Shown here piece by piece: positions 4,842 to 60,708 of a stretch of 64,000 bases of DNA; position 1 is the stretch's first letter; every line of letters starts with the position of its first letter. The notes beneath the pieces were generated by a model. The model saw nothing but the letters and a program-made list of their open reading frames with translations. It was not told where the DNA came from and made no database searches. Source of the DNA: a virus; the IMG/VR virus record IMGVR_UViG_3300031578_000005, positions 64,514 to 128,513 of that record. One strand, written 5' to 3'. Both the position numbers and the translations under genes were made by a program.

Positions 4842-7106
4842 ATGCTAATGAAAAAACATGTAAAATTTGATGAGAATTTTAATCTCATTGCTCAGGAAAT
4901 TAACAGTAAGACAACTATTGAAGTAGTTAAGAGTGTGAACCACATCATCATTATTGATGTTAGTGGGTCGATGTCATGGGATTTACCTGAAATTAGAAAA
5001 AATCTAAAAAACAAAATTTCTAATTTAATTAAAGGTGAAGATGACACAATTTCAATTATTTGGTTTTCGGGTAGAAATGATGCTGGTATTTTAAAAGAAG
5101 AGATTCATGTGAACTCACTTAAACAGCTTAACGACTTAAATGATGCGATTGATAAATATTTAAAACCAGTTGGTTTAACTGCATTTACTAAACCATTAGA
5201 ACTTGCTAATGATATTATTGAACGTATTAGTAAAAATAATCAAGATGGATTGTTTTCGTTAATTTTTATGACTGATGGTTATTCTAATAACGACATTTCA
5301 TGGAATAACGTTAGAAACGCAGTAAAAGAAATATCACCTAAACTATCATCATCATTAGTTGTAGAATATGGGCATTATTGCGATACAAGAAAACTCATTG
5401 AAATTAGTGAACTTTTAGGGGGGGAGAAAATTGATTGCACTGGGTTTGAGGAATATGACATAGTAATTGCTAAGGGATTCACAAAAAAATTAAGTGGTGG
5501 TAAAAAGGTTGTTGTTGAAATAACCGATAAGCATCTATTTGATTTTGCATTTTCAATTGATAATGATGGTAGTGTTTTGGTATATAATATCACAGACAAT
5601 AAGATTATGGTTGGTGATAATGTTAATGAAATACATTTTTTCAGTGATAATGCTATTGGTGATGAAAATAATCATCAACACACAGCTTTATATGCAGCAA
5701 TTTACTTACTTTCCGAACGATTCATGTCTGATGAAGCTGAAAAGGTATTTTACTCATTAGGTGATAATCATTATTATAAAATGTTATCCAATGCATTTGG
5801 AAAACAAAAGCTCAATGAATTTAAAACAGCAATTAAAGAATGTGTTGCTGATGTATCAAAAAGATTTCCAGATGGTATTGCTAAAATTCAACCAGTTAGT
5901 GATAATGCTTATTGTTTAATGAATCTTATTGAAGATTTGGGTAATATCGACAATTGTTTATTTTATCCTAATCATCCTGATTTTACTTATAATCGAATTG
6001 GTAGGAAAAAAATTGCTGTTGGCTCAACACTAACGGATGCAGATAAACAAAGACTTAATGAAGCCAAAAATATTGATGAGGCTTCGACCATACTTAAAGA
6101 ACTCGAAGAAAAGAAAGTCGATATTAAATTCATTAACTCCAATCCAGATAGAGGTTATTCATTAACTGATTTGGTTTGGAACGATTCTCGTTCCAATCTA
6201 AGTGTTCGAATTTATATTGAAGGTGAAGCAATTTTACCAAAAAATAATTTCAATATTGAAAAGGTTGCTTCATTCAAATATAATACATTTACTTTAATTA
6301 AAGATGGTATCGTAAATGTTGAAAAACTACCAGTAAATTATTCATTGGAATTAATTTCTTTATTAAAGGCAAATGGTGTTAAATATGAGATTTATACAGC
6401 AAAGGATAACTTTGACAATACCGTTGTTATTGATCTTTCAAGTCTGCCTATCATTAACAGAGGCATGGTAAAGTCAATTTCAGCAAATGATTTGGCAAAT
6501 AAGGAATGGAACTTAATTAAATTACAGGGGGATAAAAAGGTATATGATTATTACAAAAAATCGTTATTTCCTAAAACAAGTAAATCTTTTACTGAATTAC
6601 TTGGTCAAGAAGCTGCTGATTGGTTAAAGGAAATAGGAATTACCGATTTTAATGGGTTTGCACCCAAAGTAACTTCCGCAGAAGCTACTGATTTTTATAT
6701 GTCAGTTAATCTCACAACAAAAATCAAGGGATTGTCGAGTCTACCAAAAGTAGAAGATGTTGTAGCTAAAATTAAGGACAAAAAGCCATTAAAATTAAAT
6801 GAATGGATTATGTCTGATGCAATCATTAAATATAATTCTCAATTGGAATCTGATATGTATAAATCACTTTCAGCAGAACAACAATTGGGCGTATTAAAAA
6901 CATATTTGGAAACTAAATCTGCTATGCTTAATAAAAAACGAAGAAAAGTTTTGCAGGAGATTGCAGAAATTAAATTCGCTTTGATTCTCAGCAAACGAAA
7001 TTTTATTGAATTTAAAACGTTTGATGAAAACACACTCAACATTAAATTAGATGATCAGGAGCTAACATTTACTTTCGAATTTAGTGAAAAAGAAGAAAAG
7101 ATATAA
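4842..7106 (+). CDS. von Willebrand factor A (VWA) domain protein
   Basis: MIDAS DVSGSM, GLTAF and FMTDG motifs in N-terminal part; upstream TATATTTG Bacteroidota-type promoter. Confidence 0.75.
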   Translation: MLMKKHVKFDENFNLIAQEINSKTTIEVVKSVNHIIIIDVSGSMSWDLPEIRKNLKNKISNLIKGEDDTISIIWFSGRNDAGILKEEIHVNSLKQLNDLNDAIDKYLKPVGLTAFTKPLELANDIIERISKNNQDGLFSLIFMTDGYSNNDISWNNVRNAVKEISPKLSSSLVVEYGHYCDTRKLIEISELLGGEKIDCTGFEEYDIVIAKGFTKKLSGGKKVVVEITDKHLFDFAFSIDNDGSVLVYNITDNKIMVGDNVNEIHFFSDNAIGDENNHQHTALYAAIYLLSERFMSDEAEKVFYSLGDNHYYKMLSNAFGKQKLNEFKTAIKECVADVSKRFPDGIAKIQPVSDNAYCLMNLIEDLGNIDNCLFYPNHPDFTYNRIGRKKIAVGSTLTDADKQRLNEAKNIDEASTILKELEEKKVDIKFINSNPDRGYSLTDLVWNDSRSNLSVRIYIEGEAILPKNNFNIEKVASFKYNTFTLIKDGIVNVEKLPVNYSLELISLLKANGVKYEIYTAKDNFDNTVVIDLSSLPIINRGMVKSISANDLANKEWNLIKLQGDKKVYDYYKKSLFPKTSKSFTELLGQEAADWLKEIGITDFNGFAPKVTSAEATDFYMSVNLTTKIKGLSSLPKVEDVVAKIKDKKPLKLNEWIMSDAIIKYNSQLESDMYKSLSAEQQLGVLKTYLETKSAMLNKKRRKVLQEIAEIKFALILSKRNFIEFKTFDENTLNIKLDDQELTFTFEFSEKEEKI

Positions 7107-7125
7107 TTTGCATTAACATTACAAT

Positions 7126-7160
7126 TAAAATCCTCAAATATAATTATTTGAGGATTTTTT
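7126..7160 (+). terminator. Intrinsic terminator
   Basis: aaaatcctcaaata...tatttgaggatttt + T-run. Confidence 0.65.
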
Positions 7161-7443
7161 ATTTTAAGATGTGATGATGTTAGCTTAACATATGTCATAT
7201 ATTATTCAAGTAATTAGATATAAACAAATATATATGATACATTTATTGTTGCAAACATTTACAGTTATAGTTATATTTAGCACAACCATTAATATTTGTC
7301 TGGTTAATGGTTGTGCTATTAAACTTAATGCTAATTTAGTCTTCTATGAAGAAAAAGATTCAATAATATTTAATCGTAATATATTGACAACCAGAGTAAA
7401 TTAATTATTATTATAAAATAATTTAAAAAAAGTTTGCAGATAT

Positions 7444-7472
7444 TGTAACATTTACTAACTTTGTTACGTATT
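7444..7472 (+). promoter_or_regulatory. ECF-type promoter at head of tRNA region
   Basis: TGTAAC-17nt-CGTATT, same motif as the 29-58 kb array. Confidence 0.6.
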
Positions 7473-7506
7473 TAGATGAAACGAATTAAGAAAATTGAAT
7501 AATTTT

Positions 7507-7632
7507 ATGAAAACATTAACGATAAATATAAACATTTCTACATCGACATCAAGTCGCATTGGAGACTCTATATTCTGTTCAAATTTTAATGGCAGAATTG
7601 GAAACATTTTATCGGGTTTTAGTTTTTATTAA
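7507..7632 (+). CDS. 41-aa putative leader peptide (attenuator)
   Basis: MKTLTININISTSTSSRIGDSIFCSNFNGRIGNILSGFSFY*. Its 3' end (tcgggtttt) is complementary to the 5' arm of the downstream terminator. Confidence 0.55.
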   Translation: MKTLTININISTSTSSRIGDSIFCSNFNGRIGNILSGFSFY

Positions 7633-7655
7633 ATATAAAAGCACTAAATAAATTC

Positions 7656-7687
7656 AAAACCCGAATTCAAAAGATTCGGGTTTTTTT
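7656..7687 (+). terminator. Attenuator-type intrinsic terminator
   Basis: aaaacccgaat-tcaaaag-attcgggtttttt. Confidence 0.7.
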
Positions 7688-7828
7688 GTGATTATAATTT
7701 AAATGTGAATTGAAAAATTCACAAAGTTCATTGACATACTGGTTTTTGGTAATCAAATAAAACTACCTGCTCGTGGTGATTACCGCACAATTAATTAATA
7801 TTAATTGACTAAATGTTTTATGTTATAT

Positions 7829-7917
7829 ATCGGAATGCTTGAGTGGTTTAAAAGCGTGGTCTGCAAAACCAATGGTAATCAATGAATTACACGTGAGTTC
7901 GAATCTCATTTCCGATT
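7829..7917 (+). tRNA. tRNA-Cys(GCA) with long variable arm
   Basis: Acceptor atcggaa/ttccgat, anticodon loop ctGCAaa, T-loop ttcgaat, U73. Confidence 0.75.
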
Positions 7918-7962
7918 CAAAGTTAATTTAAGTTTAAACTATTTATGTAAAATGTTATTAAC

Positions 7963-8571
7963 ATGATACCAATATTATATACAAAAAGAATTAAATCATT
8001 AATTAAAGAGGAATTAAATAGGCTTATTGTTGAAGTTTTTGAAGGTGAATTGAATACAAATTATCAAGAACTATCACAAAAATATGATACATATAATGTA
8101 ATTACATATAGGTTTGAAACCAATTCAAAAACCTCATATGATTTGGAATTTATTTTTAATTATGTTTTAGGTAATGAAAAAATGTCTGATGGTTCAGAAC
8201 TATATACACACATATTAAACATGAAACGTACTGATTACATGGAAAGTATTGATATTGGATTTACATTAAGTGATAGAATCAATAATTTTGGTTTAGATTC
8301 TATCGAAGCTAATGAATTTACAAAGAATTCAAATAAGAACGAACCAATCGAATTAATGGGTCGTATTAGCTATTTAATTAAAATGTTTATAAATTCTAAT
8401 GAGAATATCAATATTTTTATTGTCGGTAAAAATACTGATAGGAGTAAATTAAAAATTTACAGAACAATATTTAAAAATATCTTTAGCAATAATTTCATCC
8501 TTTTAGAAGGTGAGCATCATGGCTATAATGATGGTGCTTTATATTTCATAAAGAAAACAATATTGACTTAA
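7963..8571 (+). CDS. Hypothetical phage protein (N-terminal LIKEELNRLIVE motif)
   Basis: 202-aa ORF preceded by TATTTAT motif. Confidence 0.6.
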   Translation: MIPILYTKRIKSLIKEELNRLIVEVFEGELNTNYQELSQKYDTYNVITYRFETNSKTSYDLEFIFNYVLGNEKMSDGSELYTHILNMKRTDYMESIDIGFTLSDRINNFGLDSIEANEFTKNSNKNEPIELMGRISYLIKMFINSNENINIFIVGKNTDRSKLKIYRTIFKNIFSNNFILLEGEHHGYNDGALYFIKKTILT

Positions 8572-8743
8572 AATATTAAAGTCTGTGTTTTGCATATATT
8601 GCTATAATATGTAGATTATTGCAAAACATAAACAGTTATTAATATGCTAGTGTTGCTTTAATGGTTTCATATTTAAATTTTATTATAAAAACTCGAAAAT
8701 TTAATTTCGAATCATTATTTGTGCACAAAAATAAAAACTATTT

Positions 8744-8816
8744 GGACATATAGCTACAATGGTAGAGCGTCATCCTGTTAAGTTGAAAGGTCTTGGTTCG
8801 AATCCAAGTATGTCCT
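8744..8816 (+). tRNA. tRNA-Asn(GTT)
   Basis: ggacata/tatgtcc acceptor, loop ctGTTaa, ttcgaat T-loop. Confidence 0.75.
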
Positions 8817-8826
8817 CATTTTAATT

Positions 8827-8900
8827 ATCCGTGTATATCAATTGGTTAGATGAACACCCTGATAAGGTGTGGGTTGGTGGTTCAAGTCCACCCTCGGATA
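8827..8900 (+). tRNA. tRNA-Ile(GAT)
   Basis: acacc-ctGATaa-ggtgt anticodon arm, ggtgg-ttcaagt-ccacc T-arm. Confidence 0.8.
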
Positions 8901-21218: not shown

Positions 21219-21686
21219 ATGAGTAATATTGTAGCTGATATCGTCGAGAGCGTTGAGATAAAACCAAATAAAACAAAGAGCATTTTAAAATGGATTATCA
21301 GTATTTCAGTCACACTGATTAGCTTAGCATTTGTTTTTGGCGAAATTAAAGCAAATTATTTAAATAAGTTAAATAATATTGAAATCACAACCAAAAAGAA
21401 TACTGAATCTGTAGTTGAATTAAAACATGAAATGAATATTAACGTTAATAAACTCAATAATAGAATTAATAAAGTTTATGATGATGGATATGAGATTTTT
21501 GTTGATTTTCAAGAATACAATCAAAGACAACTTGAGTTATTTATTGATTACGGTGCAAGTAATAAAGAAATATTAAAAAAGGTATTACAAATAAGTATTA
21601 CAGAAAAAAATAAGGAAGTAAGAACTATCATGGAAAAAGCAAAAAACTATGATAAAGATACTCTCAATAATACAATAAAACATTAA
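21219..21686 (+). CDS. Membrane-anchored coiled-coil protein
   Basis: Single TM helix; TATTTAT motif upstream. Confidence 0.55.
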   Translation: MSNIVADIVESVEIKPNKTKSILKWIISISVTLISLAFVFGEIKANYLNKLNNIEITTKKNTESVVELKHEMNINVNKLNNRINKVYDDGYEIFVDFQEYNQRQLELFIDYGASNKEILKKVLQISITEKNKEVRTIMEKAKNYDKDTLNNTIKH

Positions 21687-21688
21687 CG

Positions 21689-22003
21689 ATGAAAGTACTT
21701 GCAATGAATTATAATAAAAATGAATTTATTAAATTTCTCACGAAATTAAATTGTGATGACGCAATAATAAATAAGTTCATAGAACTACCTGAATTGGTTA
21801 AGCGTAATGGCAATACGTATGAGATATACATAAACACAACATGGTATAATATTGATAGACCATACTATAATTTTGAACTAAATTACTATTCAGAATATCT
21901 AAATGAGTTTTTATTTAATACAAAAATTTTAAATAAAGTCGAATTAAGCATTAATAACTTATTATATGAATTAACTAATGCTAAATTAATAACCAGAAAA
22001 TAA
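21689..22003 (+). CDS. Hypothetical protein
   Basis: ORF. Confidence 0.55.
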   Translation: MKVLAMNYNKNEFIKFLTKLNCDDAIINKFIELPELVKRNGNTYEIYINTTWYNIDRPYYNFELNYYSEYLNEFLFNTKILNKVELSINNLLYELTNAKLITRK

Positions 22004-22662
22004 TGAAAATTACAATCGCAATAATTTCAGATACACATAATAAGCACAAACAATTAAATTTACCTGATGCTGACGTTATTATTCATTGTGGTGACTTTAC
22101 TTCTGTTGGTAAAGAACATGAGATTCGTAATTTTTTTAAATGGTATTCTAAGTTAGAACAATATAAACATAAAATAGTTATTGCCGGAAATCATGATTGG
22201 TTATTTGAAACCAATAGTTTATTAGCAAAAAGTTTGGTGCCCAAAAATGTGATTTATCTTGAAGATTCTGGTGTTGAAATCGAAGGAATTAAATTCTATG
22301 GTACTCCTGTTCAAAGACCATTCAATAATTGGGCATTTAATCGTCCAGAAGAAAAACTTGAAAAACATTGGCAAGCAATTCCAGATAATATCGATGTATT
22401 AATTACACACAGCCCACCATACTCAATTATGGATTTAAGCATATATAATGGAGATTGCTGTGGCTCACCGAGTTTATATAATGAGGTTGTAGAACGCATT
22501 AAACCATTAGTTCATTTAATGGGACATATCCATGATGGCTATGGCGTTAAGATTATTAATGGTGTTGTTTTTATCAATGCCTCAAATCTTGATGAAAGTT
22601 ATAATTGTGTAAATAAACCAATATTAATTGAATTGATTAATGGTAAAGTAAATATTCTTTAA
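22003..22662 (+). CDS. Calcineurin-like metallophosphoesterase
   Basis: ISDTH, HCGD, AGNHD, THSPP and GHIH motifs. Confidence 0.9.
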   Translation: MKITIAIISDTHNKHKQLNLPDADVIIHCGDFTSVGKEHEIRNFFKWYSKLEQYKHKIVIAGNHDWLFETNSLLAKSLVPKNVIYLEDSGVEIEGIKFYGTPVQRPFNNWAFNRPEEKLEKHWQAIPDNIDVLITHSPPYSIMDLSIYNGDCCGSPSLYNEVVERIKPLVHLMGHIHDGYGVKIINGVVFINASNLDESYNCVNKPILIELINGKVNIL

Positions 22663-22672
22663 ATCATATAAT

Positions 22673-23524
22673 ATGAAAAACAAATTACAACAACATATAA
22701 AACACATTAAAACGATGTTTTATACTCTCATTGGGTGCAAGTTGAAGAGGAAAGATAGTACTAACTATATTAGGCATTACGAATATCAATTAAGATATAT
22801 TGAAGATGGTTTTCATAAACAACTATTTGATCAAATTATGACATATATTGTAGCTGGAAGATTTAAAGAGAAAACATTTCTAATGACTGATTGTGTTGGA
22901 ACACCACCAAATGGTGAACATATGTTTTGTAATAAGTTGATTAGATTAAAAAGCACCGTAAATGAAACATACTCAACGATAACCGGATATGATACATTTC
23001 AAGTTGCAATTAATTTGTTTGATAGAAAATGTTTTGAAAATGATATAATATTTGATGTTGAGAATGAAAATCATATTAATGAAATATTGGAAATATATGG
23101 ATTACTAAAAAATAATTCAGATTACAATAAGGGGGTTGACATTGAAAAAGATTTTCTTCATAGTGGGTTATTTTTTATTGAAAAGGGTAAAATTTGTTAT
23201 TATATCATTAAAAAGGATGATAATGATAAAATGTTTATACGTGATAAAAAATATGTCGAAAACAATAGTGTATTTAATGATTATTTATTTTTATCATTCG
23301 ATATTACAGATGCAAAATATGACAATACCAATGAGATAATCGAATATTGTAAAAACTCAATAAGAAAACATTATAAACTAAAAGAAGATACGAAACATCT
23401 TGATTTAAAAGATAGGTTTTCGTTTATAATATTCGATGATGATAATAAAATAAAGAACTTACCTTATTTAAATAACATTGATTTTGTATTATCTGAAATT
23501 GGTTGTAAATATGAAGATATTTAA
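22673..23524 (+). CDS. Hypothetical protein carried in attC-like cassette (true start may be downstream)
   Basis: 283-aa ORF bounded by attC-like sites. Confidence 0.55.
   Translation: MKNKLQQHIKHIKTMFYTLIGCKLKRKDSTNYIRHYEYQLRYIEDGFHKQLFDQIMTYIVAGRFKEKTFLMTDCVGTPPNGEHMFCNKLIRLKSTVNETYSTITGYDTFQVAINLFDRKCFENDIIFDVENENHINEILEIYGLLKNNSDYNKGVDIEKDFLHSGLFFIEKGKICYYIIKKDDNDKMFIRDKKYVENNSVFNDYLFLSFDITDAKYDNTNEIIEYCKNSIRKHYKLKEDTKHLDLKDRFSFIIFDDDNKIKNLPYLNNIDFVLSEIGCKYEDI
22682..22738. repeat. Short attC-like site
   Basis: AAATTACAAC-aac-a-tataaaaca..tgttttata-ctctc-ATTGGGTGC. Confidence 0.6.
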
Positions 23525-23539
23525 GGATAATAACAACCA

Positions 23540-23675
23540 GCACCCAACACCGTGTATAGTGCATTTGGTGGGTATAGGTTATTTGTAATACATCACATTT
23601 AATTAACATTATAATGACTTGATAATTAGGTGCAATAAAAACCAAACGCCACCATACACGTCAACGTTGTAATTT
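23540..23675. repeat. attC-like site
   Basis: GCACCCAAC-acc-gtgtatagtgcatttggt...accaaacgccaccatacac-gtcaac-GTTGTAATTT. Confidence 0.7.
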
Positions 23676-23733
23676 ATTTAAATCACAATATAAATGATAA
23701 ACATTTTATGAATAAAAATAATTAAAAATTAAT

Positions 23734-24768
23734 ATGAAAGATTTGAAACCAAAATTCGATTTTAATGATATATCATTAGTACCTGCGATATTATCCAATA
23801 TCATTTCAAGAAATGAGATAAATATTTTTGACATTAACAATAAATTACCAATATTTGTGTCACCAATGGATACAGTCGTTGATGATGGTAATTATAAAAC
23901 ATTCATTGATTTAGGCATGTATGTTTGTATGCCAAGAAATTATAGCGAATCAAATAAAAAATATGAAGATGAATGCTTCATTTCTTATGGTCTTGATGAT
24001 ATTGAATCAATCATAAATAACGGCGAAGAACTACCAAAAAGGGTATTAATCGATGTTGCTAATGCACATTCAATCAGGGTATATGAAGTATCAAAAAAGA
24101 TTAAAGAAAATTATAATATTGAATTAATGGTTGGTAATATTGCCAATCCAGAAACATATATTAAATATGCAAAAATTGGTGTCGATTATATTCGCTGTGG
24201 AATTGGTGCGGGGCAAAGCTGCACAACTTCAGCAAATAGCTCCATACATTATCCAATTGCTTCATTAATACATGAAATATCAAAAATAAAAAAAGAATTA
24301 AAATTTAAAAACGCACCAAAGATTATTGCTGATGGTGGATTTAAAAACTATGATGATGTAATTAAGGCAATTGGAATTGGTGCTGATGGCGTGATGTTGG
24401 GCAGTATTATAAATAAATCTATTGAGTCTTGTGGTGATAATTTTATAGTAAAAAATAATGAATATATTAAGATTGATAATGACGATGCAATAAAATTATA
24501 TGGAGAAGGAATAACAATTTTTAAAAGATTTAGAGGCATGAGTACAAAAGAAGTCCAAATAAAATGGGGGAAAAAAGAGTTGCGCACATCCGAAGGAATT
24601 GTTAAATTTAACAAAGTCGAATATTCGATATCGGGATGGATTGATAATTTTAAGGATTATTTAAAATCATGCATGTCATATCAAAATAAACTAAATATTT
24701 CTGAATTTATTGGTAATTCTGATTTTATCTTTATAACAAAAAATGCATATGACAGATTCAATAAATAA
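23734..24768 (+). CDS. IMP dehydrogenase/GMP reductase family protein
   Basis: FDFNDI, SPMDTV, IDVAN, GNIA, GIGAGQSCTT (catalytic Cys), IADGG, VMLGS, FRGMS, SEG. Confidence 0.85.
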   Translation: MKDLKPKFDFNDISLVPAILSNIISRNEINIFDINNKLPIFVSPMDTVVDDGNYKTFIDLGMYVCMPRNYSESNKKYEDECFISYGLDDIESIINNGEELPKRVLIDVANAHSIRVYEVSKKIKENYNIELMVGNIANPETYIKYAKIGVDYIRCGIGAGQSCTTSANSSIHYPIASLIHEISKIKKELKFKNAPKIIADGGFKNYDDVIKAIGIGADGVMLGSIINKSIESCGDNFIVKNNEYIKIDNDDAIKLYGEGITIFKRFRGMSTKEVQIKWGKKELRTSEGIVKFNKVEYSISGWIDNFKDYLKSCMSYQNKLNISEFIGNSDFIFITKNAYDRFNK

Positions 24769-25168
24769 AACAGATAATCTAGCAGAAATCATCAGTAGTT
24801 TATCTACCAATGAGATTAATAACTTATATGGTAAATATTCAGATGTTCTGGAACTCTATGTAATTAGAAATCGTGAACAGTTGCCATATCTAGCATATGC
24901 AATTGATACGGCATATAATTATATCAAAGAAAATCATGGCGATTTAGATAAGGACTGGAAAACAATGACAGTTCTGGTAATAACGAAACTATTAATTGAT
25001 GGTAATATTAATAGCGTAAATGATGTGACAAAATTAATTGATGATTTCATCAAGTACCATAATCAAAATTATGAAAAATATGTTAATGACTTGATTATTT
25101 TTGATGATATTGATAATTATTTAAGATTCACACATAAATTCACGGGGAAAAACATCAATAATAAATAG
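24743..25168 (+). CDS. Hypothetical protein
   Basis: ORF. Confidence 0.5.
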   Translation: MHMTDSINKTDNLAEIISSLSTNEINNLYGKYSDVLELYVIRNREQLPYLAYAIDTAYNYIKENHGDLDKDWKTMTVLVITKLLIDGNINSVNDVTKLIDDFIKYHNQNYEKYVNDLIIFDDIDNYLRFTHKFTGKNINNK

Positions 25169-38241: not shown

Positions 38242-38429
38242 AACAATGATTTATATTTTAACTATTGTTGGTGTTATAGTCGGAATCAATCTGATATTGT
38301 TCGGATATGTTCTATGAAAATTGTACAAATGGTCAAAGGATATTCATCCTAAAGATCAAAATGATGAAGTGTAACATCTACTGATAATGTTCGTATAACA
38401 ACTATAAAAAACAATTAAATTTTACGATA

Positions 38430-39200
38430 ATGAAAATTTCAACATTAAAAATATTACTAAAATATTGCACTAAAGATCAGATTAGAAATGCTGATTTTAG
38501 TGGTGCTAATTTTAGTCGTGCTGATTTTAGTGGTGCTGATTTTAGACATGCTAATTTTAGTGGTGCTGATTTTGGTTATGCTAATTTTAGAGATGCTAAT
38601 TTTAGACATGCTGATTTTAGTGGTGCTGATTTTGGTTATGCTGATTTTAGAGATGCTGATTTTAGACATGCTGATTTTAGTGGTGCTGATTTTAGTGGTG
38701 CTAATTTTAGTTATGCTAATTTTAGAGATGCTAATTTTGGTTATGCTAATTTTAGTTATGCTAATTTTGGTTATGCTAATTTTAGAGATGCTAATTTTGG
38801 TTATGCTAATTTTAGTGGTGCTGATTTTAGTCGTGCTGATTTTAGTATAATAATTAATGAAAATACTTTTGGTTTAACAATTAATTGTCCTTTAGAAGGA
38901 TCATTTATTGGATATAAGAAAACCGGTGGCTATATCATTGTACTTGAAATATGTAGTGATTCAAAAAGAAGTTCAGCCACTACATATAAATGTCGTGCAT
39001 CAAAAACTAAAACAATAAGAATTGAAAATATTGATAAAACAATTGCTGATATTACGAAGATTTCTAGTGGTTATGATTCAAATTTTATTTATGAAATTGG
39101 TAAAATAAATGAAGTTAATAATTTTGATGATAATCGTTGGAATGAATGCTCAACAGGAATACATTTTTTCATGTCACGTCAAATGGCAGTTAATTATTAA
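38430..39200 (+). CDS. Pentapeptide-repeat protein with DUF5758-like C-terminus
   Basis: ~23 A(D/N)F(S/R/G)x repeats (15-bp DNA repeat, 38488-38845), then GSFIGYKK..KCRA..ECSTGIHFF. Confidence 0.85.
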   Translation: MKISTLKILLKYCTKDQIRNADFSGANFSRADFSGADFRHANFSGADFGYANFRDANFRHADFSGADFGYADFRDADFRHADFSGADFSGANFSYANFRDANFGYANFSYANFGYANFRDANFGYANFSGADFSRADFSIIINENTFGLTINCPLEGSFIGYKKTGGYIIVLEICSDSKRSSATTYKCRASKTKTIRIENIDKTIADITKISSGYDSNFIYEIGKINEVNNFDDNRWNECSTGIHFFMSRQMAVNY

Positions 39201-47291: not shown

Positions 47292-48632
47292 ATGAAAACA
47301 ATTAAAGACTTTACACCAGAAATACAATCAAAAATTCCTGAATATATTAAAAAATATACTGAGGGAATTGAAGATGGAAAACGATATAAGAATTTCAATT
47401 TAACTGATGCTGAAAATCTAATTCATTGGAATTATGAATTATGTAATTATAAAAAACCTGTTATTATTGTTGCTGAAAATCCCTTTGAATCACAAATAAT
47501 CTTTAATTATATCGTAGCAAATAAAGAACGGTTTTTGCCAATGTTGTATTTAATATATTCATTAAAAAATAACATAAAAGAAAATATTGAGAAATTTTTT
47601 GTGAAAGGTTCTCAACTAGATTCTCAACTACATTCTCAACTAGATTCTCAACTACATTCTCAACTAGGTTCTCAACTACGTTCTCAACTAGATTCTCAAC
47701 TACATTCTCAACTAGGTTCTCAACTACGTTCTCAACTACATTCTCAACTACATTCTCAACTACGTTCTCAACTACATTCTCAACTAGGTTCTCAACTACA
47801 TTCTCAACTACTTTCTCAACTAGGTTCTCAACTAGATTCTCAACTACTTTCTCAACTACGTTCTCAACTACGTTCTCAACTACTTTTTCAACTACATTCT
47901 CAATATAATAATGATTGGTTATTTACTACTAATATTTATTCCAATGTATTAATTTCGTGGTTTATGTTTATAAAAGATGAATTTAATATTGAATCAGAAA
48001 TTGGTATTAAATTAGATTCATGGAATGATTTGTATTTAAAATCAAACATTTATTCTGCAATATTTTCTGAACTAGTGTGTGTTGTAAGTAAATATCCACA
48101 AAAGATACATAGAAATACTGATGGTTTATTACATAATTTAGATGGAAATGCTGTTGAATGGAATTCAATTTCAGTTGAAACCAAATTTGATTGTTATTAT
48201 ATTAATGGTCGAAATATGCCATCATGGATTTTTGATAAATTCAAAAATAATCAATTACAAAAAGAAGATTTTTTAAATGAAGAAAATGAAGATATTAAAG
48301 CCGGGATATATGAATTGATTGAAAGTAAAGGTGAGGGCAGTATGTTGACATTTTTAAATGCTATTGAGGTAGATAGAAAAACAATACCCCATGAATATGG
48401 TGAAGAAGAATTTATATTGTACAAGACAAAAGAAAAATTCAATGAAGAAGTGGATTTAAATGGTAATTCTCCATCAGAATTGGCTTGGTTAAAAATGACA
48501 TGTCCCTCAACCGGATCAAATTATCTAATTCCTTCGGATGCAAGTTTTAATGACTGTGTTACTGCAGCAAAATATCATCGGCCAATTTTTGTACCAGAAG
48601 ATATTCCATATTATTGGAATAGTAGAAACTAA
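47292..48632 (+). CDS. DUF6745-like protein with SQLx tetrapeptide repeat tract
   Basis: ~24 x 12-bp ttctcaactaNN at 47609-47903; LHNLDG.A..W, MTCPSTG..Y motifs. Confidence 0.7.
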   Translation: MKTIKDFTPEIQSKIPEYIKKYTEGIEDGKRYKNFNLTDAENLIHWNYELCNYKKPVIIVAENPFESQIIFNYIVANKERFLPMLYLIYSLKNNIKENIEKFFVKGSQLDSQLHSQLDSQLHSQLGSQLRSQLDSQLHSQLGSQLRSQLHSQLHSQLRSQLHSQLGSQLHSQLLSQLGSQLDSQLLSQLRSQLRSQLLFQLHSQYNNDWLFTTNIYSNVLISWFMFIKDEFNIESEIGIKLDSWNDLYLKSNIYSAIFSELVCVVSKYPQKIHRNTDGLLHNLDGNAVEWNSISVETKFDCYYINGRNMPSWIFDKFKNNQLQKEDFLNEENEDIKAGIYELIESKGEGSMLTFLNAIEVDRKTIPHEYGEEEFILYKTKEKFNEEVDLNGNSPSELAWLKMTCPSTGSNYLIPSDASFNDCVTAAKYHRPIFVPEDIPYYWNSRN

Positions 48633-60122: not shown

Positions 60123-60224
60123 CCGCAATGCTGGCATTAATTTTTATTGTGGGTAACGTTGAGTATTGGCGTTTGTTGCCGATTAGAAAGCACTTAATTA
60201 TCAAATTACTAAACACTTTATAAA

Positions 60225-60428
60225 ATGGAAAATACTTCAAATACCCACGAAAACGGCAATAACGCTAATACTGTGTTATGTGGCGTTATTGATAGGATAT
60301 TAACCGAAAAGAAAGTAGATAGTTGTCCCAAAATATTACCACAATGCCAATTAGGTGATGTTTGCATATTATGTGATACAATGACTAAAGATAAGCCTAA
60401 AAACTGTCTTAGACATAATGCCACATAA
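60225..60428 (+). CDS. Cassette ORF, Cys-rich, with MENTSNTHENG leader
   Basis: Starts in loop; stop is core TAAC. Confidence 0.55.
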   Translation: MENTSNTHENGNNANTVLCGVIDRILTEKKVDSCPKILPQCQLGDVCILCDTMTKDKPKNCLRHNAT

Positions 60429-60495
60429 CGTTGAGTATTGGCGTTGTTGCCGATTAGAAACCACAAAATTATTAATTTACTAAATACTTTATAAA

Positions 60496-60708
60496 ATGGA
60501 AAATACTTCAAATACCCACGAAAACGGCAATTGCGCTAACCGTGTGTTAGCGGTTGTTACTCCTGAAATGGAGCAATTCGCAAGTGAATATGGTTTATTT
60601 ATCATATCAGTAGGGCAAAAATATATCAATGCTTTATCGCCTGATTTTACGACAGAAAGCAGTATGGAAATATTTAAACGTGAGTATTGGGGTCGGAAGT
60701 GGTTTTAA
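60496..60708 (+). CDS. Cassette ORF with same MENTSNTHENG leader
   Basis: Hairpin near-identical to 60154-60278. Confidence 0.55.
   Translation: MENTSNTHENGNCANRVLAVVTPEMEQFASEYGLFIISVGQKYINALSPDFTTESSMEIFKREYWGRKWF

What the first reader, a model, noticed from the sequence alone, without database searches (positions are those of the whole stretch)
22682..23675. Footprint of one cassette inserted precisely into a pre-existing attC-like site
Seen: the outer cores AAATTACAAC (22682-22691) and GTTGTAATTT (23666-23675) are perfect reverse complements. The inner cores ATTGGGTGC (22730) and GCACCCAAC (23540) match at 8/9. Removing 22731-23666 restores a self-complementary short hairpin site. Inference: this is the nested pattern expected from site x site recombination at G|TT. 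It fixes the crossover point and shows the system acting ~33 kb from the main array, between two metabolic genes.
Basis: partly seen in the sequence, partly recalled or inferred. Interest (0 to 1): 0.78.

Follow-up and report, generated by a model that had tools for sequence, protein, structure and literature searches.

The report
Gene cassette inserted into phage hairpin site
A protease-like gene in a giant soil phage sits as a swappable cassette inside a small folded DNA site that many large phages share, which is a clean footprint of integron-style gene capture.

Summary
Both repeat pairs exist as described. Taken alone they are not beyond chance: a perfect inverted repeat of 10 nt or more occurs in 30 of 1261 equivalent placements, and an 8/9 pair in 66% of 316. 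I first read them as noise, but comparison with other DNA reversed that.

- **Inner pair.** It recurs at homologous places in two distant homologues (L006, L007) with compensating changes.
- **3' flank.** It belongs to a structured attC-like family of about 130 nt. Eleven of 21 pairs show compensatory change. The family forms a seven-site array in L007.
- **Left part (22678-22730).** It is the left portion of a hairpin site whose 20-nt core is exact in 31 stretches of IMG/VR viral contigs, mostly intact.
- **Replication.** Two of those loci (L118, L123) repeat the nested pattern with unrelated cargo. Rejoining the halves in silico gives a two-tier hairpin (z -4.7).
- **Cargo.** It is an Anbu/proteasome-beta-like Ntn hydrolase.

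Not shown:
- that the site pre-existed at this locus. Two complete relatives hold other genes there and no site.
- the exact crossover base.
- the recombinase. There is no tyrosine recombinase; small serine recombinases are present.

This scan had already noted the integron-like array in this same window (e1-6153872, e1-6153873). Clusters of attC sites without an integrase (CALINs) in phages are published (PMC9892861).

The parts
22003..22662 (+). Upstream conserved gene: calcineurin-like phosphoesterase, 219 aa
   Evidence: Pfam Metallophos, E 1.5e-13. It is 65-66% identical to the genes in L013 and L014, and homology runs to the stop codon.
22673..23524 (+). 283-aa ORF. It is read from a start codon in the resident site, through the left junction, into the cassette.
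   Evidence: ORF list. The frame upstream of Met56 is open for 62-82 codons in 4 of 4 long-form loci, while the other two frames carry 5 to 14 stops over the 100 codons scanned.
22678..22730 (+). Left, larger part of the resident short hairpin site. It comprises the outer arm R'' (22678-22691, core 22682-22691), the inner stem 22696-22704 / 22716-22724, the loop 22705-22715 and the spacer 22725-22730.
   Evidence: It aligns with 21 distinct intact sites from viral contigs and with L118, L123 and L008. The local hairpin has z -3.91. The 20-nt core is exact in 31 viral stretches.
22730..22731 (+). Left junction, A|TT (the family has G|TT)
   Evidence: In alignment A5 site-type conservation ends at this column and cargo-specific sequence follows the TT.
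22731..22745 (+). Cassette 5' end, TTGGGTGC-AA-GTTG, complementary to the cassette's own R'' region
   Evidence: The homologous elements in L006, L007 and L008 sit in two different reading frames, so conservation is at the nucleotide level.
22838..23524 (+). Core of the cargo: an Anbu/proteasome-beta-like Ntn hydrolase starting at Met56-Thr57
   Evidence: AlphaFold2 model, pLDDT 87.2, pTM 0.80. Best structural match is Anbu: Z 13.2, rmsd 3.7, 182 residues aligned, model 57-266 on chain 1-210. A profile hit to a proteasome beta subunit (E 0.0048) aligns the conserved Thr, Asp and Lys of the profile with T, D and K of the chain. 70 of 72 aligned relatives have Met directly before the Thr or Ser.
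23532..23679 (+). The cassette's attC-like site. It comprises R'' 23545-23548 (wider arm 23533-23548), L'' 23549-23557, L' 23653-23661, the bulge CAAC 23662-23665 and R' GTTG 23666-23669.
   Evidence: Alignment and consensus fold with four sites of L006 and L007: 21 pairs, 11 with compensatory change. Model R1 scores it 126.6 bits, but it was a training sequence. It shares CGTCAACGTTGT with L007 site 2.
23666..23667 (+). Right junction, G|TT
   Evidence: CGTT is invariant in the five aligned sites.
23667..23679 (+). Right, small part of the resident site (TTGTAATTTATTT), complementary to 22678-22690
   Evidence: L118 and L123 carry G|TTGTAAT at the same place, after their own cassette sites.
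23734..24768 (+). Downstream conserved gene: IMP dehydrogenase / GMP reductase-like, 344 aa
   Evidence: Pfam IMPDH, E 3.5e-35. It is 54% identical to the gene in L014, from the start codon on.

Best explanation
The stretch 22731-23666 is a gene cassette of the integron type. It carries an Anbu/proteasome-beta-like Ntn hydrolase gene, followed by the cassette's own folded site of about 130 nt. The cassette's first bases pair with the first box of that site.

The cassette lies inside a much shorter hairpin site. Rejoined, that site has an outer helix, an inner 9-bp helix and an 11-nt loop. It belongs to a family that is highly conserved in many large phages. Recombination between the cassette's site and the resident site, at the conserved (G/A)|TT of the 3' core, split the resident site into a 53-nt left part and a 13-nt right part. 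That gives the nested complementarity seen.

The left part supplies an ATG and 19 codons, so the cargo is read as a fusion. The active enzyme most likely begins at Thr57, either after removal of the extension or by initiation at Met56.

**Shown:** the anatomy, the homology of both sites to families found elsewhere, the covariation, and replication of the nested pattern at two other loci.

**Inferred:** that site-specific recombination made the arrangement, the strand form of the substrate, the enzyme, and whether the event happened at this locus or before the module arrived here.
For: 1. **Cassette ends covary in three loci.**
   - window: TTGGGTGC-AA-GTTG / CAAC-CA-GCACCCAA
   - L006: TTAGGTAC-AA-GTTT / AAAC-CA-GTACCTAA
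   - L007: TTAGCGGG-CA-GTTT / AAAC-CGA-CCCGCTAA, beyond an inserted transposase gene
   - Duplex energy: window -39.6 against -24.5 +/- 4.2, 0 of 300 shuffles as good; L006 -42.1, 5 of 300.
2. **The left element is conserved as nucleotides.** The same bases are read in two frames: VSGQF in L007 and LAVSL in L008.
3. **The 3' flank aligns with four sites of L006 and L007.** There are 21 consensus pairs, 11 with compensatory change.
4. **Model R1 finds untrained sites.** It was built from those 5 sites.
   - four further sites in L007 (47-97 bits), giving a seven-site array
   - three sites in L009, one directly after a short-form homologue
   - ten in the window's 57.7-64 kb array
   - 46 in 24 viral loci, every one on the strand of the short site in that locus
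5. **The 20-nt core of the left part is exact in 31 stretches of IMG/VR contigs**. The window's left part aligns with 21 distinct intact sites up to the G|TT.
6. **The window's outer boxes differ from the consensus on both sides together.** The consensus has TATAAC/GTTATA and the window has TACAAC/GTTGTA.
7. **Small cassettes with complementary ends.** 15 of 20 distinct intact loci have a perfect 9-nt partner of their R'' flank 232-437 nt to the left. Controls give 0 and 1 of 20.
8. **Replication.** L118 and L123 carry the same leader, G|TT, unrelated cargo, an R1-type site and then G|TTGTAAT.
9. **The rejoined site folds well,** z -4.72.
Against: - Taken alone, both pairs are within chance for this 27% G+C DNA.
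- The window's own 130-nt site does not fold better than shuffles: DNA z -0.28 and -0.65, RNA z +0.46.
- The left junction has A where the family has G.
- No empty allele of this site type was found. All 3 leader-type viral loci and L008 are occupied.
- Both complete syntenic relatives hold other genes in the slot. They lack the hairpin, the cores and any R1 hit.
- The leader is joined to the same cargo family in L008, P0007 and P0008. Site and cargo may therefore have travelled together.
- L118 and L123 stay alike for about 45 codons, well past the G|TT, so not all exchange happens at the core.
- No tyrosine recombinase was found in the window's record (39% complete) or in the two complete relatives.
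- The extension is kept open in frame, so coding constraint adds to its conservation. Identical codons at identical residues are 13 of 13 in the leader against 33 of 47 elsewhere, which is only a modest excess.
- R1 places the L008 site on the opposite strand, so strand calls for these near-palindromes are not safe.
Confidence: 0.7

Rival explanations
1. The anatomy is the same, but the chemistry is not integron-like. The crossover site would be the double-stranded palindrome CAAC|GTTG (AACGTT in the main array), cut by one of the phage's own small serine recombinases. The hairpins would then be accessory or incidental.
For: - Small resolvase-type serine recombinases (open frames of 196-224 aa) are present in 3 of 3 genomes: G000:43699-44112, three in G001 and two in G002.
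- No tyrosine recombinase was found in any of them.
- The right junction reads CAACGTTG, a perfect 8-bp palindrome.
- L007 sites read CAACGTTG and CAACGTTA.
Against: - The stems covary while their sequence drifts. That is expected for folded single-strand sites, not for protein-read duplex sites.
- L007's array has the cargo typical of chromosomal integron arrays (SIR2-like, PIN toxin) and no serine recombinase in the 9 kb held.
- No link between the recombinase genes and the sites was tested.
Confidence: 0.25
2. The conserved hairpins would be regulatory nucleic-acid signals, such as terminator or processing signals, or operators with the invariant loop CATTAAAACGA. Genes would be swapped between them by ordinary homologous recombination at these shared sequences, as proposed for the promoter-stem-loop cassettes of T4-type phages (recalled, not read here). 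No dedicated recombinase or defined crossover would exist.
For: - The loop and much of the short site are invariant in 25 of 25 aligned copies, more than structure alone needs.
- The sites lie between genes.
- L118 and L123 diverge about 75 nt past the core rather than at it.
- No integron integrase was found.
Against: - Cassette ends 230-1300 nt apart are complementary and covary. A local signal does not require that.
- No Rfam family matches 22000-24500 at E up to 1.
- No terminator-like site was found in 22400-24000.
- The same site family forms a co-oriented seven-site array with single-gene spacing in L007.
Confidence: 0.1
3. Both repeat pairs are chance matches in AT-rich DNA, and the ORF is an ordinary gene with a long intergenic spacer. 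This was my first reading.
For: - Sliding-geometry tests give 2.4% for the outer pair and 66% for an 8/9 pair.
- There are 96 inverted pairs in the 1401 nt around the locus.
- The 3' spacer shows no significant fold.
Against: - The inner pair recurs with compensating changes in L006 and L007.
- Both halves belong to families found in dozens of other contigs.
- The nested pattern recurs in L118 and L123.
Confidence: 0.03

Closest known systems
Integron gene cassettes with attC sites, in particular clusters of attC sites lacking an integrase (CALINs) in virulent phages. Source: Qi et al. 2023, Front Microbiol 14:1091391, PMC9892861. I read the abstract and the passages returned by a term search.
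   Same: - A promoterless ORF is followed by an imperfect hairpin site with outer boxes ...YAAC / GTTR... and inner paired boxes.
- The cassette's first bases are complementary to the first box of its own site.
- The junction is at G|TT.
- No integrase sits next to the sites.
- The carrier is a phage. The paper reports 17 CALINs in 10,705 phage genomes, one of them in a Polaribacter phage.
   Different: - Here one full-size site is nested in a second, much shorter site (about 58 nt rejoined) of a family that is nearly invariant in sequence across 29 viral contigs.
- The cassette boundary lies inside the reading frame, so the resident site supplies the start codon and 19 codons.
- The right-hand box GTTGTAA departs from GTTRRRY.
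- In the window's main array and in most other phage loci the genes run opposite to the sites.
- I did not run IntegronFinder or HattCI models.
attI, the primary docking site of an integron (textbook knowledge, not read here)
   Same: It is a fixed site where incoming cassettes are inserted at G|TT and from which they are expressed. In the window, L118 and L123, 3 of 3 leader-type loci in which both ends are held carry exactly one cassette (L118's holds two ORFs); L008's contig ends inside the ORF.
   Different: attI is not a hairpin, and it sits beside intI and the cassette promoter. This site is a hairpin related to the cassette sites. It has no integrase next to it and works as a translational leader.
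Promoter-early stem-loop (PeSL) 'mobile regulatory cassettes' of T4-type phages (recalled from memory; my literature search for them failed on a term-length error)
   Same: Small accessory genes of large virulent phages are separated by conserved stem-loop elements that are thought to promote modular exchange.
   Different: PeSLs are promoter-plus-terminator signals exchanged by homologous recombination. This window has such a promoter motif separately (TGTAAC-N16-CGTATAAT). The sites described here have complementary cassette ends and a defined junction.
Anbu, BPH, HslV and proteasome beta subunits (for the cargo protein)
   Same: The fold is the same: VIA-align Z 13.2 to Anbu and 11.5 to BPH, and the Foldseek rows listed (50, to rank 50, E 1.0e-06 to 9.5e-06) are proteasome subunits plus one Anbu. 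Thr57, Asp73 and Lys88 are conserved at the spacing of the catalytic Thr1, Asp17 and Lys33 (the residue names are recalled).
   Different: There is no Pfam or PHROG match, and sequence identity to solved chains is 7-15%. This member has a 56-residue N-terminal extension with Met, not Gly, before the Thr. Activity and assembly state are untested.

Membership tests
Integron-type gene cassette / attC site | Outer boxes: R'' of the form RYYYAAC at the 5' end of the site, and R' of the form GTTRRRY at its 3' end (consensus recalled) | tested here: inconclusive
   The cassette's R'' is ACCCAAC, which fits. The left junction is ATTGGGT, which fits except for A in place of G at position 1. The right junction is GTTGTAA, which fits at 5 of 7 positions. 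L006 has GTTAGGT / ACCTAAC, a full fit.
Integron-type gene cassette / attC site | Imperfect hairpin with a second pair of boxes (L''/L') whose structure, rather than sequence, is conserved | tested here: met
   The L helix is 9 bp, 23549-23557 / 23653-23661. The consensus fold of 5 sites has 21 pairs, 11 with compensatory change. The window copy alone does not fold better than shuffles.
Integron-type gene cassette / attC site | The cassette's 5' end is complementary to the R'' of its own site, the footprint of a circular intermediate | tested here: met
   Seen in the window, L006 and L007 with compensating changes, in L118 and L123, and in 15 of 20 distinct short-site loci.
Integron-type gene cassette / attC site | Extrahelical bases on the bottom strand, and recombination of the folded single strand | not tested
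   A 4-nt bulge (CAAC, 23662-23665) lies between the two helices. Strand choice and extrahelical bases were not analysed, and recombination cannot be tested with these tools.
Integron-type gene cassette / attC site | Recognised by the curated attC covariance models (IntegronFinder, HattCI) | not testable with these tools
   Those models are not on hand. Rfam gave no match for 22000-24500 at E up to 1.
Complete integron | An integron integrase (a tyrosine recombinase) next to attI and a cassette promoter | tested here: not met
   PF00589 gives 0 matches in the window's record, which is 39% complete, and 0 of 2 in the complete relatives. The control genomes matched in 14 of 14.
CALIN (cluster of attC sites lacking an integrase) | At least two attC sites close together without an integrase (definition as given in PMC9892861) | tested here: inconclusive
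   The locus has one full-size site plus the split short site. R1 gave no hit on the left part at E up to 10. It scored intact short sites at only 23-24 bits.
Proteasome-beta / HslV / Anbu Ntn hydrolases (cargo) | Ntn-hydrolase fold with an N-terminal Thr nucleophile and conserved Asp and Lys | tested here: met
   Fold: Z 13.2 to Anbu, with model residue 57 on chain residue 1. Residues: D73 is invariant, and M56, T57, K88 and G105 are at least 90% conserved in 72 sequences. The profile alignment to 8adn_N pairs the conserved T, D and K. Activity is untested.

The most novel reading that the evidence does not exclude
The leader-type hairpin would be a docking-and-expression platform of giant phages. 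It would be a recombination site built into the first 20 codons of an open frame, so that any captured cassette at once receives a start codon and an N-terminal leader. The phage's own small serine recombinase would serve it. That would make it an integron analogue without IntI, spread through many large phage lineages.
Probability: 0.2. Interest if true: 0.8.

Novelty: new variant of a known kind. Interest (0 to 1): 0.62.

Why it matters
If the reading holds, this is a single, clean insertion event outside any array. Both halves of the target site and both ends of the cassette can be read, which locates the exchange to within four bases. That turns an integron-like system of giant phages into something testable with two short DNA substrates.

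The reading also shows three further things:
- One hairpin site of about 48 nt is shared almost unchanged by at least 29 viral contigs.
- A recombination site can double as the front end of a gene.
- Phage accessory genes, here a proteasome-like hydrolase, are drawn from the same cassette pool as a cassette array of unknown origin (L007) that carries SIR2-like and PIN-domain (toxin-antitoxin-like) genes.

CALINs in phages are already published, and this scan had already flagged the array in this window. The gain is therefore mechanistic detail and breadth, not a new principle.

Tried and rejected
1. **Chance reading (first 60 calls).** I held it on three grounds: the sliding tests, the position of both left arms inside the ORF, and the conserved N-terminus. 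I gave it up.

2. **Wrong 'main array'.** It has 39 matches against 0.85 expected and lies a median of 31 nt before start codons. It is a promoter-type motif. The array meant lies at 56.5-64 kb.

3. **Signal scans.** Rfam gave no match for 22000-24500. The promoter and terminator scan was at chance level.

4. **Leader copies in the genome.** A search for the leader peptide or its DNA elsewhere in the 128.5-kb record found no second copy.

5. **Protein search with residues 1-40.** It returned only the query and missed P0007, which is known to share the leader. The search is insensitive and says nothing.

6. **Homologue searches that found nothing.**
   - GenBank phages by tblastn: no match.
   - Viral contigs with alignment A1: 30 pattern matches, none confirmed.
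   - Genome contigs: 22 pattern matches, none confirmed.
   - G001, G002 and G003: 0 of 3.

7. **HUH/Y1 transposase (PF01797).** 0 of 3 genomes.

8. **Sequencing runs.**
   - Two DNA holders were found; no RNA holder is listed.
   - Contigs laid on 21500-25000 show no joint at either core.
   - The five joints listed have sides of 21-33 nt at 85% likeness and lie elsewhere.
   - X2 has two contigs that leave the window sequence at 22723, and depth is raised over 22670-22786. Both fit other organisms that share the conserved site.
   - Contigs cannot show rare forms, so this is no evidence either way.

9. **Empty allele.** I did not type a joined sequence. Instead I scanned with one unbroken 20-nt stretch and inspected all 31 hits. 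None is an empty leader-type site. L111 is an odd copy that I could not class.

10. **Missing contigs.** I could not fetch the contigs of P0002, P0003, P0004 and P0008, which include the closest homologues.

11. **Supplements.** The supplements of PMC9892861 (the list of the 17 CALINs) were not seen and may bear on overlap with these phages.
Full report
**What is in the sequence.** The window is 27-31% G+C. It is the second half of a 128,513-nt IMG/VR virus record estimated at 39% complete. Its nearest GenBank matches are uncultured huge phages and Prevotella Lak phages, at 60-80% identity over short stretches.

The finding spans three features:
- a 283-aa ORF (22673-23524);
- the 209-nt spacer behind it;
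- the flanking genes, a calcineurin-like phosphoesterase (22003-22662) and an IMPDH/GMP-reductase-like gene (23734-24768).

The outer pair extends to 13 of 14.

**Chance.** I slid the same two zones along the window.
- A perfect inverted repeat of 10 nt or more turns up in 30 of 1261 placements.
- An 8/9 pair turns up in 66% of 316 placements.

The 1401 nt around the locus hold 96 inverted pairs. Both left arms lie inside the ORF, and the N-terminus looked conserved in homologues. I therefore first read the finding as noise. That reading did not survive comparison with other DNA.

**The cargo.** The ORF has no Pfam or PHROG match. It has 9 close homologues and 97 representative relatives at E up to 0.001.
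- A 72-sequence alignment has D73 invariant, and M56, T57, G62, K88, G105 and D117 at least 90% conserved.
- A profile of that alignment hits a proteasome beta subunit (E 0.0048) and aligns the conserved Thr, Asp and Lys.
- The AlphaFold2 model has pLDDT 87.2 and pTM 0.80.
- Foldseek matches that model to proteasome beta subunits at E about 1e-6.
- VIA-align matches it best to Anbu: Z 13.2, rmsd 3.7, 182 residues, with model residue 57 on chain residue 1.
- BFVD hits include phage proteins named proteasome beta or HslV.

In 70 of 72 relatives a Met stands directly before the Thr or Ser, and 44 of the 72 start there. Residues 1-56 of the window protein are thus an extension. The frame of that extension is open for 62-82 codons in 4 of 4 long-form loci, while the other two frames carry 5 to 14 stops over the 100 codons scanned. 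So the extension is kept translatable.

**The inner pair is real.**
- *L006.* This homologue is 51% identical. GTGTTAGGTAC in codons 17-20 is the exact complement of GTACCTAACAC, 19 nt after the stop. Both lie at the places homologous to the window's arms.
- *L007.* GTTAGCGGG in the extension matches CCCGCTAAC 1.3 kb further on, beyond a DDE transposase gene that has been inserted after the ORF.
- *All three.* Each also keeps a second 4-bp helix, GTTG/CAAC or GTTT/AAAC.
- *Energies.* The long-range duplex is stronger than in shuffles for the window (0 of 300 as good) and L006 (5 of 300). It is not stronger for L007's immediate flank or for the short-form L009.
- *Reading frames.* The left element sits in two different frames in the four loci. 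The same bases give VSGQF in L007 and LAVSL in L008. Its conservation is therefore at the nucleotide level.

**The 3' flank is an attC-like site.** The window's 23534-23680 aligns with the L006 flank and three sites of L007. They share ...YAAC-AC-(R)CGGTAT at the left and ATAC-CGYCAAC-GTTR at the right. The window and L007 site 2 share CGTCAACGTTGT.

The consensus fold has 21 pairs, 11 with compensatory change. In the window the parts are:
- outer helix CAAC 23545-48 / GTTG 23666-69;
- inner helix 23549-57 / 23653-61, 9 bp;
- a 4-nt bulge, 23662-65.

On its own the window copy folds no better than shuffles. The L006 copy is strong, z -5.3.

A covariance model of the five sites (R1) finds untrained sites:
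- four more in L007 (47-97 bits), each behind an ORF, which makes a seven-site array whose cargo includes a SIR2-like protein and a PIN-domain protein;
- three in L009, one directly after a short-form homologue of the cargo;
- one more in L006;
- ten in the window at 57.7-64 kb, all on the minus strand.

In whole records at E up to 0.001, R1 hits G000 seven times, G001 seven times and G002 not at all.

**The left part is a conserved site.** L008 shares 30 identical bases with the window's codons 9-18 although the proteins are only 41% identical. Codon bias explains much of that: identical codons at identical residues are 13 of 13 in the leader against 33 of 47 elsewhere.

A scan of IMG/VR with the 20-nt core gave 31 stretches on 29 contigs, one of them the relative G001. 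In 27 of the 31 the element is an intact hairpin: TAAC-AA-CAAATAAAACA-CATTAAAACGA-TGTTTTATTTG-CAACC-GTTA. There are 21 distinct copies after 3 near a locus end and 3 duplicates were dropped, and their flanks vary on both sides.

The window aligns with them column by column up to CTCTC-A|TT.
- Its third stem pair is changed on both sides.
- Its outer box is TACAAC where the consensus has TATAAC. This matches GTTGTA at 23666 where self-matched intact sites have GTTATA.

In 15 of 20 distinct intact loci, the 9-nt complement of the left box and its flank lies 232-437 nt to the left. Controls give 0 and 1 of 20. These sites therefore close small cassettes with complementary ends. R1 finds 46 further sites in 24 of these loci, each on the strand of the short site in its locus.

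**Replication of the nested pattern.** L118 and L123 carry the leader-type version, from the ATG through AAATTACAA and the hairpin to ATCG|TT.
- L118 is followed by a 176-aa ORF plus a second small ORF.
- L123 is followed by a 251-255-aa ORF unrelated to the window's cargo.
- L118 shares only residues 1-31 with the window protein.

Both cassettes end in an R1-type site (43.7 and 42.6 bits). The first box of that site (AAAACCTACACACAAC) is the complement of the cassette start, and the site is followed by G|TTGTAAT, the partner of ATTACAA in the leader. The window's two halves, joined by coordinates, fold into a two-tier hairpin (z -4.72).

**What argues against, or limits, the reading.**
- The only syntenic relatives, L013 in G001 and L014 in G002, are both rated complete. 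Their flanking genes are conserved at 54-73% identity.
- In the slot they hold a 106/110-aa acidic protein and a 151/158-aa protein. L014 also has a tRNA-like stretch, and L013 keeps only a remnant of the IMPDH-like gene.
- They have no homologue of the cargo anywhere, no leader hairpin or cores in the slot, and no R1 hit in the loci.
- At this distance intergenic DNA cannot be compared. Insertion at this locus is therefore neither shown nor excluded.
- The leader is joined to the same cargo family in L008, P0007 and P0008. L118 and L123 stay alike for about 45 codons beyond the core. So modules also move or break elsewhere.
- The left junction has A, not G.
- The resident and cassette cores share (G/A)TTG, so the crossover is placed only within those bases.
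- No tyrosine recombinase was found and no Y1 transposase. Small serine recombinases are present in all three genomes, one of them about 20 kb before the window's start. No link to the sites was tested.
- Contigs of two runs show no alternative joint, which says nothing about rare forms.

**Comparison with what is known.** Phage CALINs, and attC sites of virulent phages that IntI1 can use, are published (PMC9892861; abstract and passages read).

Other agents of this scan described the integron-like array at 56.5-64 kb of this same window (e1-6153872, e1-6153873). They also described a phage cassette array headed by a serine recombinase on other DNA (e1-5134818). I did not test the latter. One related bold reading elsewhere in the scan later fell (e1-878563).

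What this locus adds:
- a single insertion outside the array, in the orientation usual for bacterial arrays (gene and site on one strand);
- both halves of a short, widely conserved target site;
- use of that site as a translational leader;
- the identity of the cargo.

My two literature searches found no paper on such sites in huge phages. That is a narrow search, not proof of absence.

**Verdict.** The cassette-in-site interpretation is supported in its core (confidence 0.7). It is unproven for the place of the event, the exact base and the enzyme. I rate it a new variant of a known kind, interest 0.62.

Noticed in passing
window 29662-61754: A promoter-type motif, GTAAC-N15-19-GTATA (fuller form TGTAAC-N16-CGTATAAT). 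There are 39 matches, 38 on the + strand, against 0.85 expected. It lies a median of 31 nt before the next start codon. Some copies overlap a G+C-rich hairpin followed by a T run. The relative G002 has 23 forward copies, mostly at 34-69 kb.
   Followed up: partly
window 60173-60278 and 60444-60549: A 106-nt stretch is duplicated at 90% identity. It covers a hairpin site and the first 12 or so codons (MENTSNTHENGN) of two ORFs that then diverge near a GTTA core. One leader thus carries two different cargos inside the main array.
   Followed up: no
G000:C1:43699-44112 (about 20 kb before the window's start): A small serine recombinase (Resolvase domain, 70.7 bits, open frame of 224 aa). G001 has three and G002 has two. 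No tyrosine recombinase was found in any of the three genomes.
   Followed up: partly
L007 1-9137: A seven-site cassette array of unknown origin. It carries an amidohydrolase, a SIR2-like protein, a PIN-domain ORF (8421-8834) overlapped at its start by a 77-aa ORF (8198-8431), and the Ntn hydrolase. A DDE transposase gene (6751-7962) is inserted between that hydrolase ORF and its site. A TTGCTATATTTG motif lies in the loop of one site, and the same motif lies upstream of the L006 gene.
   Followed up: partly
L008 3214-3562: A 78-aa ORF is bounded by GTTAGGCAC and GTGCCTAAC. These look like the classical integron core and inverse core (consensus recalled). The ORF lies directly before the leader-type site of the Ntn hydrolase gene.
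   Followed up: no
L114, L115 and L120 (around the 20-mer match): A second hairpin lies beside the first. It has the same 11-nt loop, CATTAAAACGA, but other stems (TATAGCA/TGCTATA and TATGTTC/GAACATA). The loop is conserved while the stem covaries.
   Followed up: no
L013 6889-7032 and L014 6080-6160: In relative G001 only an N-terminal remnant of the IMPDH-like gene is left. In relative G002 the slot holds a tRNA-like stretch (seen by eye, ARAGORN not run) between its two genes.
   Followed up: no
window 38422-38916 and 47537-47956: Long in-frame tandem repeats, of period 15 nt (22 copies) and period 12 nt (24 copies), inside ORFs 38430-39200 and 47292-48632.
   Followed up: no
window 22838-23524 and proteins P0002-P0102: A family of Anbu-like Ntn hydrolases without any Pfam model: 97 representative clusters at 50% identity with E up to 0.001. 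44 of the 72 aligned start at Met-Thr or Met-Ser. They occur in phage-like and array contexts.
   Followed up: partly
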